A DNA stretch of 64,000 nt from Escherichia coli (GTDB lineage Bacteria; Pseudomonadota; Gammaproteobacteria; Enterobacterales; Enterobacteriaceae). Shown here one piece after another: positions 10,101 to 16,100 of the stretch. The position numbers were made by a program. The stretch is taken from assembly GCF_048403405.1 (NCBI RefSeq), contig NZ_CP183129.1; one strand, 5' to 3'. Within the stretch, counting starts at the first letter, position 1. Every line of letters starts with the position of its first letter.

Positions 10101-13100
10101 TCTTCAGCTCTTCGCCGAAGTACCAGGTGAGATGACCCGGCATATAGCCTATCTCTGGCGTTTGTTTGTCTGCGGCGTCTGGGAATGCGCAAATGGAATA
10201 ACCATTCAGTGGGTTATCGCCGTGGCGAAGCGCCAGAAAAGCCGCCGGGCCGTGGCAAAGGGAGATAACAAAACGGTCATTTTTGATTGCCCACTGTAAA
10301 GCGGCAGCTACGTCCTGGCTTTCAGGTAAACCAATAAGTGCGCCATGACCACCAGGAACAAAGATTGCTGCATATTCGCTATCAGCGTTGAGGCTGGCGA
10401 CAACATCCGCGAGTTTCTTCGGATTGCGGAACAACGATTTATGCTGCTCAAAGAATGGCATTACTTTTTCATCTTTGTGCGGCATAGCCCAGTATTCAAA
10501 CTTGGTCAACAGGCCGGAAATGGTCGCCACTTCGAATTCGAAACCTGCAGCATGGAGATGATACAACGGCAGCAACGTTTCAATCGGATGGTTACCGGTC
10601 GAGAACAGTTTTCCGTTATCGGTCGGCAAATAACGTTCGTCCGCGGCGATCACCAGAATTTTATGTTTACCGCGATACGGTTTTGGATAGTCCACGCCAT
10701 CAAGATCAGAGACAGGACTGGTATATTGGCTAAGCGAATATTCTGAAGGGAAGAATGCATTATCTTCAGCAATATCGACCTGCGGATTTTTACTTGTTTG
10801 AACAGTCATAGTGTATTCCTTATTGTTGCTTAGTTAGGGTGGTCACTATATTTGCGACTGAGCTGGTCGCTATTTTTAACCAGGCTGGAAAATTGAGTCA
10901 ATATATCGAAAGCGGTAGTCGGCGGGTGTAAGTATGTAATGATGATGCTGCACTGGTGTTGAATATTATTCACGCCAAATTTTCCTTATTGAGTAACGTC
11001 GTCGCAAGTGGCCTCAATGATTTTAGACCATTATCAGAGGTACGGGGTGGCGGGGAGAGATTTAGTGCTGTGGAATATTGTGGTGCTGATGAATATTTAT
11101 ATCGCGGATTGGTAGAGAAAAAGCTTATTTCATGCACTATTTTTGCAAATATTTCTATATGGGAAGCGTGTTTGTTACGGATTAATTCATAAAGAAATGC
11201 ATTTGGGTGTTAGCTTGAAGAGTAGCTGGTTGATGTTATTGTGCCAGGAGGGGCAGGGTAAGGTGCTGTATCGATATGCTTCGGCAATTGCGTGTGCCGC
11301 AGATGGAGATGAAATGCCAATAAAAAAGCCTGAGTTCGATGAGGGACGAACTCAGGCTAGTGTTAAGTTTTACAGTAACACGCCGCAGCGAGTTGGCTGA
11401 TTAGAACTGGTAGACGATACCAACTGCAAACTGGTCATCAGCTGCTGCGCCAGTAATGGCGGCGTCATCTTTATCCAGCATGTTGAATTTGTATGCAGTA
11501 TAAACGTTCATGTTCTTATTAAAGTAGTACCAGGTACCAACTTCAATGTAGTTCACACGGTCAGCGTCAACATATCTATGTCCAGGTACCCCTTTGATAT
11601 CTTTACCTTTAGAGTACACATAACCTAAGGACGGACGCAGACCAAAGTCGAATTGATACTGAACAACCGCTTCAAAGTTCTGGGTTTCATTGATAAGTTG
11701 ATCACGCATTATTGTATTGCCTTCTCGATCGGCAACACCTGTATCAATAGAACCCGGAGTCATATTACGAGTTTCGCCGTACATTACAGCTGCGTAGACA
11801 TTGTTCGCGTCATACTTTGCAGCCAATGACCACAGTTCAGCATTTGAACCGTTTCCATCGGCAACTTGATCGTTGGTGCGATCAGATTTGCTATATGCAC
11901 CAACGATACCAAAACCATTGATGTTATAGTCTACAGACAACGCATAGCCGTCACCATTTTGTTTCTTAGTGCTACGGTTGCTGTTTTTGCCTTGGTACTG
12001 AATCGCAAAATCAAGACCATCAACCAGGCCAAAGAAATCATAGTTACGGTAGGTTGCAACACCGTTGGTACGACCATTCATGAAGTTGTCAGCGGAAGCC
12101 CAGGAATCGCCACCCCATTCAACTAACATATCGGTATAAGCTGCGGCATCATAAGCAACACCGTAGTTACGGCCATAGTCAAATGATCCTAACTCGTTAT
12201 ATTTCAAACCGGCGAAGGTTAAACGGGTTTTTTCCTGGTTTTCACCTTCGGGCTTGCTGGCGTCGAGGTTGTATTCAAACTGACCAAAACCAGTCAGTTC
12301 GCTGGTGATTTGGGTTTCACCTTTAACACCGAAACGAGCATAGGAGGTATCTTCGTTTTCGCTGTTATTATCATCAGTATTTGACCAGATGCGTTCGCCA
12401 ACCATCTTGCCGTAGAAATCAACTTTATTGCCATCTTTATTATAAATTTCAGCCGCATTTGCTGCGCCAGCAACTAATAACGCCGGGACCAGCATTGCCA
12501 GAACTTTTCTTTTCATTATGTATTCCCTTGTGATTATAATCTTCATGAATATATCAATAAGTGCCGTTATCCAAAAAAAAGCACATTTGGATACTATTCT
12601 ATGAAGTTCATTTTATTTTAAGGATTACATGTAACAAATGTATTTAAAAGATTTCAAAATGTTTCTAATCTATTTAATATAATTCAGGATTATGAATTCT
12701 GAATATAAACATTCATGAAGATTATAAATGTATATCAATAAGTTATGAGTTGAACTGAAAGATAGGGAGTATCAATGATCGTTGCGCTAAACGGCTGGTG
12801 TGATCACGCGCACATTAATGAAGGCATAAAAAAAAGCCGGCATCATGCCGGCCCAAAAAATATAAACAAGACGATAAAAGGCTAATAACGGAGGCATCAT
12901 GACACAGAATAATAAAAAGGTATAATTGTAATCAGTGCTAATATATTGATTGAATGAATTAATAAAGCCGATATCAAAGATAAATAAAATCGCTCAAAAC
13001 GATTTTTCTTGTATTCACTGCCGTTGCGCAAAAATTATCTATTTGTTCAAAAAATGATTGAGTCTTGACTGGCTCATTCAATGTGGAAAAATGTGATTTT

Positions 13101-16100
13101 TATCACATAATAGTACTAAGTCTGAATTTTCCGGGTTATCTCAAAATGGAATACGGTTCGACAAAGATGGAAGAGAGACTCTCTCGCAGCCCTGGTGGCA
13201 AACTGGCTTTGTGGGCTTTCTATACATGGTGTGGCTATTTCGTCTGGGCAATGGCGCGTTACATCTGGGTGATGAGCCGGATCCCCGATGCCCCCGTGTC
13301 GGGATTTGAAAGCGATTTAGGCTCTACCGCGGGAAAGTGGTTAGGGGCACTGGTCGGATTTTTATTTATGGCTCTGGTCGGGGCATTGTTAGGCAGCATT
13401 GCCTGGTACACCCGACCTCGTCCCGCACGTAGCAGACGCTATGAATAAAAACTGCTAAGGTGGCGACTCTTTGGCAACGGAGCGCGTATGGACTTACAAC
13501 ACTGGCAGGCAGAGTTCGAAAACTGGTTGAAAAACCATCATCAGCACCAGGACGCGGCCCATGACGTGTGTCATTTTCGCCGCGTCTGGGCTACGGCACA
13601 GAAGCTGGCGGCAGATGATGACGTCGATATGCTGGTGATTTTAACCGCCTGTTATTTTCACGATATTGTGAGCCTGGCGAAAAATCATCCGCAACGGCAG
13701 CGTTCTTCAATCCTGGCGGCAGAAGAGACGCGTCGCCTGCTCCGTGAAGAGTTCGTGCAATTTCCGGCGGAGAAAATTGAGGCCGTTTGTCATGCCATTG
13801 CCGCTCACAGTTTCAGCGCGCAAATCGCCCCCTTAACAACGGAAGCTAAAATCGTCCAGGATGCGGATCGGCTGGAAGCCCTGGGGGCGATTGGCCTGGC
13901 GCGCGTGTTTGCCGTTTCAGGGGCATTGGGCGTGGCGCTGTTTGATGGCGAAGATCCGTTCGCACAGCATCGCCCGCTTGATGATAAACGCTACGCGCTG
14001 GATCATTTCCAGACAAAGTTACTGAAATTACCGCAAACCATGCAAACCGCAAGAGGCAAGCAGCTGGCGCAGCACAACGCGCAATTTTTAGTCGAGTTTA
14101 TGGCGAAGCTCAGTGCCGAACTGGCGGGGGAGAATGAAGGTGTCGATCACAAGGTGATAGATGCGTTTTCACCCGCGGGCTGAGCGCGTGGCCCTAAATG
14201 GCTGTAATTATGTTAACCTGTCGGCCATCTCAGATGGCCGGTTAAATCTATGCAGGAAAATATATCAGTAACCGATTCATACAGCACCGGGAATGCCGTT
14301 CAGGCAATGCTGGAGAAACTGCTGCAAATTTATGATGTTAAAACGCTGGTGGCGCAGCTTAATGGTGTGGGTGAGAATCACTGGAGCGCGGCAATTTTAA
14401 AACGTGCACTGGCGAATGACTCGGCATGGCACCGTTTAAGTGAGAAAGAGTTCGCCCATCTGCAAACGTTGTTACCCAAACCACCGGCACATCATCCGCA
14501 TTATGCGTTTCGCTTTATCGATCTATTTGCCGGAATTGGCGGCATCCGTCGCGGTTTTGAATCGATTGGTGGACAGTGCGTGTTTACCAGCGAATGGAAC
14601 AAACATGCGGTACGCACTTATAAAGCCAATCATTATTGCGACCCGGCGACGCATCATTTTAATGAAGATATCCGCGACATCACCCTCAGCCATCAAGAAG
14701 GCGTGAGTGATGAGGCGGCGGCGGAACATATTCGTCAACACATTCCTGAACACGATGTATTACTGGCCGGTTTTCCTTGTCAGCCATTTTCGCTGGCTGG
14801 CGTATCGAAAAAGAACTCGCTCGGGCGGGCGCACGGTTTTGCCTGCGATACCCAGGGCACGCTGTTCTTTGATGTGGTGCGCATTATCGACGCGCGTCGT
14901 CCGGCGATGTTTGTGCTCGAAAACGTCAAAAACCTGAAAAGTCACGACCAGGGTAAAACGTTCCGCATCATCATGCAGACGCTGGACGAACTGGGCTATG
15001 ACGTGGCTGATGCAGAAGATAACGGGCCGGACGATCCGAAAATCATCGATGGCAAACATTTCCTGCCGCAGCACCGTGAACGCATCGTGCTGGTGGGTTT
15101 TCGTCGCGATCTGAATCTGAAAGCCGATTTTACCCTGCGTGATATCAGTGAATGTTTCCCTGCGCAGCGAGTGACGCTGGCCCAGCTGCTGGACCCGATG
15201 GTCGAGGCGAAATATATCCTGACGCCGGTGCTGTGGAAGTACCTCTATCGTTATGCGAAAAAACATCAGGCGCGCGGTAATGGCTTCGGTTATGGAATGG
15301 TTTATCCGAACAATCCGCAAAGCGTCACGCGTACGCTGTCTGCGCGTTATTACAAAGATGGCGCGGAAATTTTAATCGATCGCGGCTGGGATATGGCCAC
15401 GGGTGAAAAAGACTTTGACGATCCGCTGAATCAGCAACATCGTCCACGTCGGTTAACGCCTCGGGAATGCGCGCGCTTAATGGGTTTTGAAGCGCCGGGA
15501 GAAGCGAAATTCCGCATTCCGGTTTCGGACACTCAGGCTTATCGCCAGTTCGGTAACTCGGTGGTCGTGCCGGTCTTTGCCGCGGTGGCAAAACTGCTTG
15601 AGCCAAAAATCAAACAGGCGGTGGCGTTGCGTCAGCAAGAGGCACAACATGGTCGACGTTCACGATAAGGCCACCCGCAGCAAAAATATGCGCGCGATTG
15701 CCACGCGTGATACGGCGATTGAGAAGCGCCTCGCCAGTTTGTTAACTGGGCAGGGCCTTGCGTTTCGCGTTCAGGACGCCAGTCTGCCCGGACGCCCGGA
15801 TTTTGCCGTTGATGAATATCGCTGCGTGATATTTACCCATGGCTGCTTCTGGCATCATCATCACTGCTATCTGTTTAAAGTGCCTGCGACTCGAACCGAG
15901 TTCTGGCTGGAGAAGATAGGTAAAAATGTTGAGCGCGATCGCCGCGATATCAGTCGCTTGCAGGAACTCGGCTGGCGCGTATTGATTGTCTGGGAGTGCG
16001 CGTTACGTGGGCGCGAGAAGCTGACGGATGAAGCGCTTACCGAGCGTCTGGAAGAGTGGATCTGCGGCGAAGGTGCCAGCGCGCAGATCGACACGCAGGG

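What the first reader, a model, noticed from the sequence alone, without database searches (positions are those of the whole stretch)
13092..13107. Perfect CRP consensus site at the yedR start region
TGTGATTTTTATCACA has both CRP half-sites perfect and is nearly identical to the site upstream of azuC (58482..58497). It overlaps the longest candidate yedR start (GTG 13083), so the true yedR start is probably a downstream ATG (13146 or 13167), with CRP regulating yedR and/or the divergent sRNA promoter.
Basis: seen in the sequence. Interest (0 to 1): 0.3.

Follow-up and report, generated by a model that had tools for sequence, protein, structure and literature searches.

The report
CRP operator over the drpB promoter
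The perfect CRP-binding palindrome is real and lies on top of the promoter of the small cell-division gene drpB (formerly yedR), where cAMP-CRP most likely shuts the gene off when glucose is scarce; the binding, the repression and the corrected start codon have each been published, so the finding is correct but ordinary.

Summary
TGTGATTTTTATCACA is at 13092-13107. It is one of only two perfect TGTGA-N6-TCACA sites in the 64 kb window (0.04 expected by chance). The locus is E. coli rseX <- | -> drpB(yedR)-yedJ-dcm.

- Yahashiri 2020 showed that translation starts at ATG-22 (window 13146), not GTG-1 (13083), and that the promoter lies between them.
- Li 2021 reported yedRJ as CRP-repressed and EMSA-validated.
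- A 2026 Footprint-seq preprint measured Kd ~1.9 nM for the K-12 allele.

What I add:
- Two independent TSS datasets put a start at A13118, 7 nt after CATAAT (13106-13111). One of them puts a second start at 13098.
- The CRP site is therefore centred at -18.5 and about +2 relative to these starts. That geometry fits repression by promoter occlusion, not activation.
- The GTGA/TCAC cores are the only invariant upstream columns in 11 sequences from 9 genera, including genera without rseX.
- All nine non-E. coli orthologues have in-frame stops in the "GTG-1" extension.

RseX starts 181.5 bp away and shows no link to the site. I found no in vivo ChIP evidence for this site. The published ETEC peak maps to a second CRP site at 12799-12814.

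Verdict: confirmed, supported, already known, low interest.

The parts
13092..13107 (.). CRP site 1, TGTGATTTTTATCACA (centre 13099.5). The K-12 allele has C at 13097.
   Evidence: perfect match, 0.04 expected. (K-12 allele). (Footprint-seq Kd 1.9 nM for the K-12 allele). (conserved in 9 genera).
13084..13111 (+). Promoter P1: -35-like TGGAAA (13084-13089), 16-bp spacer, -10 CATAAT (13106-13111). The CRP site fills the spacer and shares C13106 and A13107 with the -10.
   Evidence: promoter scan, 9 of 12. The hexamer ends 7 nt before the mapped TSS A13118.
13118..13118 (+). Transcription start of P1 (MG1655 2033449 in .3 coordinates, 2031473 in .2). It gives a 28-nt leader to ATG 13146. The CRP centre is at -18.5.
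   Evidence: Kim 2012 TSS-seq, whose -50..+1 sequence ends ...CACATAATAGTACTA. SMRT-Cappable-seq. Coordinate map.
13065..13092 (+). Promoter P2: -35 TTGACT (13065-13070), 16-bp spacer, extended -10 TGg-AAAAAT (TG 13084-13085, hexamer 13087-13092). The last T of the hexamer is the first T of TGTGA.
   Evidence: 9 of 12, TG present. The homologous hexamer is TATAAT, CAAAAT or AAAAAT in most orthologues.
13098..13098 (+). Transcription start attributed to P2 (MG1655 2033469), inside the CRP spacer. Transcripts from it reach yedJ-dcm-vsr. The CRP centre is at about +2.
   Evidence: SMRT-Cappable-seq only. Not listed by Kim 2012.
13083..13085 (+). GTG-1, the former annotated yedR start. It lies inside the P1 -35 and the P2 extended -10, and is not the functional start.
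   Evidence: Yahashiri 2020. (in-frame stops in all nine non-E. coli orthologues).
13146..13448 (+). drpB (yedR) coding sequence from ATG-22, 100 aa. An alternative in-frame ATG-29 at 13167 (93 aa) is the start that is invariant across genera and the one used by PGAP.
13488..14183 (+). yedJ (HD phosphohydrolase), co-transcribed with drpB. It also has its own TSS at about 13468.
12829..12918 (-). rseX sRNA, divergent neighbour. Its start is 181.5 bp from the CRP centre. It is not part of the mechanism.
   Evidence: Rfam RF01401, 99 bits. (present only in Escherichia loci).
58482..58497 (.). The other perfect CRP site, upstream of azuC. azuC is also CRP-repressed.

Best explanation
The palindrome is a high-affinity cAMP-CRP operator laid over the core promoter(s) of the drpB-yedJ(-dcm-vsr) transcription unit. 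The main mapped start is A13118 (P1: TGGAAA-16-CATAAT). The CRP site occupies the whole spacer plus the first two bases of the -10, so its centre is at -18.5. A second start at 13098 (P2: TTGACT-16-TGgAAAAAT) lies inside the CRP spacer, so the centre is at about +2. RNA polymerase and a CRP dimer cannot occupy these positions together. When cAMP is high (poor carbon source, slow growth) CRP excludes polymerase and drpB-yedJ is repressed. In glucose or fast growth the promoter is free. The old GTG-1 'start codon' is promoter DNA, and the protein starts at ATG 13146 (with 13167 as the start conserved across genera). What is shown: the site sequence and its statistics, its position relative to published TSSs, and its conservation (my analyses). 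What is published: CRP binding in vitro, higher yedRJ expression without CRP, and the start codon. What is inferred: that repression is direct and steric through this site.
For: Site and statistics. Coordinate map to MG1655 without indels. TSS A13118 in two independent datasets (Kim 2012; SMRT-Cappable-seq), and TSS 13098 in the latter. Promoter hexamers found at the expected distances. CRP binds the K-12 allele in vitro with Kd 1.9 nM. The yedRJ promoter was EMSA-positive and classified 'Crp repression' from wild type versus delta-crp transcriptomes. [quoted passage not shown] Phylogenetic footprint: in 11 sequences from 9 genera the only invariant upstream columns are GTGA and TCAC, against a mean column identity of 48%. 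Every locus has a site with at most 1 mismatch, 44.5-67.5 bp from the conserved ATG. A -10-like hexamer ends on the first T of TGTGA in most genera. The window allele (T at 13097) is closer to the TGTGAT...ATCACA consensus than the K-12 allele. The other perfect site in the window, at azuC, is also a CRP-repressed promoter.
Against: I found no in vivo occupancy data for this site. The ETEC ChIP-seq peak labelled yedR corresponds, after correcting a coordinate offset of about 176-196 bp, to the second site at 12799-12814. A K-12 ChIP-exo supplement had no entry for this locus. The 'Crp repression' call in Li 2021 rests on transcriptome logic plus EMSA, not on an operator mutation, and an indirect growth-rate effect is hard to exclude. 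The TSS at 13098 is supported by one dataset only. All TSS data come from K-12 and from glucose or rich media, not from the window's strain or from high-cAMP conditions. P1 hexamers are only moderately conserved outside Escherichia.
Confidence: 0.78

Rival explanations
1. CRP binds the site tightly but has no direct regulatory effect. The higher yedRJ expression in delta-crp cells would be an indirect consequence of altered growth or physiology.
For: No operator mutant has been tested. No in vivo ChIP peak was found for this site. Many strong CRP sites in Footprint-seq have no known role.
Against: The half-sites are the only invariant non-coding columns across 9 genera, which argues for selection. 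The site sits exactly on the mapped core promoter. Li 2021 designed their criteria to separate CRP effects from growth-rate effects and confirmed binding by EMSA.
Confidence: 0.12
2. CRP activates a promoter from this site. The candidates are the divergent rseX promoter, an unannotated minus-strand transcript, or a class II drpB promoter starting near 13141 that is only seen at high cAMP.
For: All available TSS maps come from glucose or rich medium, where CRP-activated starts would be weak. A GATAAT-like hexamer on the minus strand (13039-13034, read) would place a hypothetical start about 72 bp from the site centre.
Against: The RseX start is 181.5 bp away, outside classical class I/II spacing. 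The site is conserved in Lelliottia, Klebsiella, Atlantibacter, Kluyvera and others that have no rseX. No minus-strand (window) TSS between the site and rseX is listed in either dataset. There is no -10-like hexamer at 13129-13134. The measured net effect on yedRJ is repression.
Confidence: 0.06
3. The palindrome is a chance match inside the N-terminal coding region of a 121-aa YedR.
For: In E. coli the frame is open from GTG 13083. Plasmid constructs can initiate at GTG-1 at a low level.
Against: 0.04 perfect sites are expected per window. All nine non-E. coli orthologues have in-frame stops in this stretch. Only the M22 form was detected from the chromosome. The TSSs lie downstream of GTG-1.
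Confidence: 0.01

Closest known systems
CRP-repressed azuC (AzuCR) promoter, present in the same window
   Same: It has a perfect TGTGA-N6-TCACA site (58482-58497) plus a second CRP-like site (58512-58527) lying over the promoter of a small membrane-protein gene. Expression is high in glucose and repressed by CRP.
   Different: azuC has two sites and encodes a dual-function RNA. drpB has a single site placed between and over the -35/-10/+1 elements. Direct CRP dependence at azuC was shown with a delta-crp strain by its authors. At drpB the evidence is a transcriptome classification plus EMSA.
Classical CRP repression by promoter occlusion (e.g. cyaA P2, gal P2, spf; recalled from the general literature, not checked here)
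   Same: A CRP site overlaps the -10/+1 or -35 of a sigma-70 promoter, so CRP and RNA polymerase compete for the DNA.
   Different: Those cases have operator mutants and in vitro transcription behind them; drpB does not. At gal, the same site simultaneously activates a second promoter, and no such partner promoter is evident here.
Class I / class II CRP-activated promoters (lac, galP1, melR type)
   Same: The same protein and the same 16/22-bp recognition sequence.
   Different: Activation needs the site centred near -41.5, -61.5, -71.5 and so on. Here the centres are -18.5 and about +2 for the drpB starts and -181.5 for rseX, so the defining geometry is not met.

Membership tests
cAMP-CRP DNA-binding site | Match to the palindrome TGTGA-N6-TCACA, with T/A at the inner flanking positions and A/T-rich outer flanks | tested here: met
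   10 of 10 half-site bases match, the inner positions are T and A (TGTGAT...ATCACA), and the 5' flank is AAA.
cAMP-CRP DNA-binding site | Binding by purified cAMP-CRP | not testable with these tools
   Literature only. Footprint-seq gave Kd 1.9 nM for the K-12 allele, which differs at one spacer base. The yedRJ promoter was EMSA-positive. The window's allele itself has not been assayed.
cAMP-CRP DNA-binding site | Occupancy in vivo (ChIP) | tested here: inconclusive
   After coordinate correction, the ETEC ChIP-seq peak maps to the neighbouring site 2. Nothing was found for this site in the supplements that were accessible.
cAMP-CRP DNA-binding site | Evolutionary conservation of the half-sites in orthologous regulatory regions | tested here: met
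   GTGA and TCAC are invariant in 11 sequences from 9 genera, while the flanks average 48% identity.
CRP-repressed promoter (occlusion type) | Operator overlaps the -35/-10/+1 of an experimentally mapped TSS | tested here: met
   TSS A13118 (two datasets) and TSS 13098 (one dataset), mapped onto the window through an indel-free alignment. The site spans the P1 spacer and -10 and the P2 +1.
CRP-repressed promoter (occlusion type) | Higher expression when CRP is absent or inactive | not testable with these tools
   Literature: yedRJ is listed as 'Crp repression'.
CRP-repressed promoter (occlusion type) | Repression lost when the operator is mutated; CRP blocks open-complex formation in vitro | not tested
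   I found no such experiment in the papers searched.
Class I/II CRP-activated promoter | Site centred near -41.5 (class II) or -61.5/-71.5/-82.5/-92.5 (class I) from a mapped TSS | tested here: not met
   The centres are -18.5 (P1), about +2 (P2) and -181.5 (rseX).
Coding sequence of a 121-aa YedR | Open, conserved reading frame from GTG-1 in orthologues | tested here: not met
   In-frame stops occur in all nine non-E. coli orthologues, and E. albertii has indels that shift the frame. Published Western blots show the M22 form.

The most novel reading that the evidence does not exclude
The CRP operator on the drpB core promoter is an ancestral Enterobacteriaceae device. It would tie cAMP/carbon status to the level of a divisome accessory protein that can also switch on the Rcs envelope-stress relay. 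Through the long read-through transcripts that start inside the operator (drpB-yedJ-dcm-vsr), it would also tie carbon status to cytosine methylation and very-short-patch repair. The natural T/C polymorphism at 13097 (about 14% versus 70% of complete E. coli genomes) would set different repression strengths in different lineages.
Probability: 0.3. Interest if true: 0.35.

Novelty: already known. Interest (0 to 1): 0.15.

Why it matters
Little is known about when chromosomal drpB is expressed; the 2024 Rcs study says so explicitly. Placing a conserved CRP operator exactly on its promoter gives a simple, testable rule: drpB is on in glucose or fast growth and off at high cAMP. It also corrects a bookkeeping error. 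The 2026 Footprint-seq preprint lists this strong site as internal to yedR, because it used the old 121-aa annotation. With the revised start the site is intergenic and overlaps the promoter. PGAP annotations of most strains still use a third start (ATG-29). Beyond that, this is a routine regulatory site.

Tried and rejected
- I first read the ETEC ChIP-seq peak (2210222) as lying between the two CRP sites and supporting in vivo binding at site 1. Checking a neighbouring peak (yedP) showed that the paper's coordinates are about 176 bp lower than NC_017633.1. The peak therefore belongs to site 2, and I dropped this as evidence.
- I took the Footprint-seq 'centre' 2033477 as the motif centre and derived a wrong coordinate map, off by 9.5 bp. 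Alignment to MG1655 corrected it.
- I assumed from memory that azuC is CRP-activated with class II geometry. The AzuCR paper says it is CRP-repressed.
- I looked for this locus in the Cappable-seq 2016 supplement, the Latif 2018 ChIP-exo supplement, and the Kim 2018 and Li 2021 supplements, and found nothing or no files held. The Thomason 2015 dRNA-seq paper is not held. A 'yedJ + cAMP' text search returned only noise.
- I considered a class II drpB promoter (TSS near 13141) and a class I minus-strand promoter (TSS near 13027). Neither has a reported TSS.
- I did not run the genome-contig scan, structure prediction or the large protein searches. Nine orthologous loci from exact-protein look-ups were enough.
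Full report
**Observation**

The sequence TGTGATTTTTATCACA is at 13092-13107. A both-strand search for TGTGA-N6-TCACA finds two perfect sites in the 64 kb window, this one and 58482-58497. The expectation from dinucleotide-preserving shuffles is 0.04, and none of 100 shuffles reached two. The two sites are identical at 14 of 16 positions. The second lies upstream of the 28-aa AzuC ORF (58580-58666).

**Identity of the locus**

The region is 100% identical to several E. coli chromosomes, and 5366 of 5426 complete E. coli genomes contain it.
- Rfam places rseX at 12918..12829 on the minus strand, at 99 bits.
- RefSeq annotates a porin to the left, then drpB (the renamed yedR), yedJ and dcm to the right.
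- In the window's lineage PGAP starts drpB at 13167 (93 aa).
- MG1655 now starts it at 2033421 (100 aa).
- An indel-free alignment gives the map: window coordinate = 2046567 - NC_000913.3 coordinate.
- The K-12 site is TGTGACTTTTATCACA, so the window carries T instead of C at 13097. This completes the palindrome TGTGAT...ATCACA.
- A 32-mer with the window allele is found in 766 of 5426 complete genomes, and the K-12 allele in 3788.

**What is already published**

- Yahashiri et al. [quoted passage not shown] A chromosomal drpB-gfp fusion makes only the M22 form. [quoted passage not shown]
- Li et al. 2021 (PMC8085971) list yedRJ among 'novel and validated' CRP targets with the label 'Crp repression'. 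This is based on wild type versus delta-crp transcriptomes across carbon sources, and on EMSA.
- The Footprint-seq preprint (PMC12871828) lists taTGTGAtaaaagTCACAttt with an estimated Kd of 1.9 nM as a novel site. It marks the site as internal to yedR, a consequence of the old 121-aa annotation.

**Position relative to transcription starts**

- Kim et al. 2012 list a minus-strand TSS at 2031473 (NC_000913.2). Its -50..+1 sequence ends ...CACATAATAGTACTA, which is window A13118.
- SMRT-Cappable-seq (NC_000913.3; M9-glucose and rich medium) lists the same position, 2033449. It also lists 2033469 (window 13098), from which reads extend through yedJ, dcm and vsr, and 2033099 (window 13468) ahead of yedJ.
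- The mechanical promoter scan had independently found TGGAAA-16-CATAAT, with the -10 at 13106-13111, exactly 7 nt before A13118. It also found TTGACT-16-AAAAAT with an upstream TG, with the -10 at 13087-13092, 6 nt before 13098.
- The CRP site therefore fills the P1 spacer and overlaps its -10 (centre -18.5). It also covers the P2 start (centre about +2).
- These positions are incompatible with class I or class II activation. They are the geometry of steric repression, which matches the published direction of regulation.
- The old GTG-1 codon lies inside the P1 -35 and the P2 extended -10.

**Comparative evidence**

DrpB homologues are annotated at 81-94 aa in other genera. I retrieved nine orthologous loci: E. 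albertii, E. fergusonii, Lelliottia, K. aerogenes, Atlantibacter, Pseudocitrobacter, Kluyvera, Phytobacter and a Klebsiella sp. All have drpB-yedJ followed by dcm or vsr, and eight of the nine have a porin gene upstream (Lelliottia does not).
- Every locus has a CRP site with at most one mismatch, 44.5-67.5 bp upstream of the conserved ATG.
- In the 11-sequence alignment the only invariant upstream columns are GTGA and TCAC, against a mean column identity of 48%.
- A -10-like hexamer (TATAAT, CAAAAT or AAAAAT, often preceded by TGn) ends on the first T of TGTGA in most genera. The 3' flank shows no matching conservation. This asymmetry suggests the P2-type arrangement is the ancestral one.
- All nine non-E. 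coli orthologues have in-frame stop codons between the site region and the conserved ATG. The ATG-29 codon (ATGGA) is nearly invariant and is the annotated start in eight of the nine orthologues (Phytobacter's annotated start lies a few codons upstream). ATG-22 is confined to Escherichia.
- rseX is detected only in the two Escherichia loci, so the site travels with drpB, not with rseX.

**The sRNA option**

The RseX start at 12918 is 181.5 bp from the site centre. Neither TSS table lists a start on the rseX-side strand between the site and rseX. SMRT-Cappable-seq selects long transcripts, and both datasets come from low-cAMP media, so this is weak negative evidence. Together with the conservation pattern it makes CRP control of rseX through this site unlikely.

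**In vivo binding**

The ETEC H10407 ChIP-seq table has a peak labelled yedR/ETEC-specific at 2210222 with the motif CGTGATCTCGCGCACA.
- In NC_017633.1 that motif is at 2210411-2210426, and the perfect site is at 2210119-2210134.
- MEME was run within +/-50 bp of peak centres.
- The neighbouring yedP motif lies 176 bp to the right of its listed peak.
- The table's coordinates are therefore offset, and the peak belongs to the second site (window 12799-12814), not to the site in the finding.

I found no ChIP evidence for site 1. This is the main gap in the case for direct regulation.

**The azuC comparison**

The AzuCR paper states that azuC transcription is CRP-repressed and that predicted CRP sites lie over its promoter. 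The window has a second CRP-like site at 58512-58527. The two perfect palindromes in this window are thus both attached to promoters that are high in glucose and repressed by CRP. The resemblance between them is what two near-consensus sites would show anyway.

**Verdict**

The mechanism is best described as CRP occlusion of the drpB core promoter, with confidence about 0.78. It is already known in its parts. My contribution is limited to three things:
- putting the site on the mapped promoter;
- showing the cross-genus footprint;
- correcting two literature coordinate or annotation issues.

Interest is low.

Noticed in passing
window 12799-12814: A second CRP site, TGTGATCACGCGCACA (1 mismatch), lies just beyond the rseX terminator and about 285 bp upstream of the porin gene start. 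The K-12 allele has Footprint-seq Kd 4.9 nM, and after coordinate correction the ETEC ChIP-seq peak maps here. It is conserved in E. albertii (L003 1141-1156) but not seen in the other genera. Its target (the porin gene, or nothing) is unknown.
   Followed up: partly
window 12899-12929: A near-consensus plus-strand promoter-like element, ATGACA-16-TATAAT (11 of 12), overlaps back-to-back with the rseX -10 (TACAAT on the minus strand, 12929-12924). This is a symmetric, bidirectional-promoter-like arrangement. No plus-strand start near 12933 is listed in the two TSS tables consulted.
   Followed up: partly
window 11401-12546 (minus strand): The porin gene next to rseX is intact here (381-aa ORF; RefSeq 'porin' WP_000824355.1). 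In K-12 the corresponding gene, yedS, is a pseudogene.
   Followed up: no
window 13146 vs 13167: Annotation disagreement: MG1655 RefSeq starts drpB at ATG-22 (experimentally supported), while PGAP in other E. coli strains starts it at ATG-29 (93 aa). ATG-29 is the codon conserved in all other genera, several of which have a Shine-Dalgarno-like GGAG/AAGGA just upstream.
   Followed up: partly
L015 (E. coli O157:H7 Z1836), equivalent to window 13107: The site reads TCACG instead of TCACA. The same change turns the P1 -10 from CATAAT into CGTAAT, and drpB is annotated as frameshifted in this strain. This may be decay of the whole unit in that lineage.
   Followed up: partly
L014 (E. coli 2017.18.04CC), equivalent to window ~13134: An IS1 element is inserted between the CRP/promoter region and ATG-22, separating drpB from its native promoter.
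   Followed up: no
literature coordinates (MG1655 2033477 and 2033766; ETEC 2210222 and 2201816): The Footprint-seq 'centres' are 9.5 and 5.5 bp away from the motif centres. The ETEC ChIP-seq table coordinates are about 176-196 bp lower than NC_017633.1. Either can mislead when sites are assigned to peaks.
   Followed up: yes
SMRT-Cappable-seq operon table (MG1655 2033469): The operon starting at 2033469 is listed as containing b1963, although that start is 15 nt inside the then-annotated 121-aa yedR (GTG-1 = 2033484). The methods say only fully covered genes are listed. This is unexplained.
   Followed up: no
window 21159-21174: GGTGACGCGCGTCACA (1 mismatch to the CRP palindrome) is the same sequence as the CRP ChIP-seq motif listed for yedP in ETEC.
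   Followed up: no
L008 (Pseudocitrobacter) 1327-1342: A second perfect CRP palindrome, TGTGAGAATCTTCACA, lies about 100 bp upstream of the conserved drpB site.
   Followed up: no
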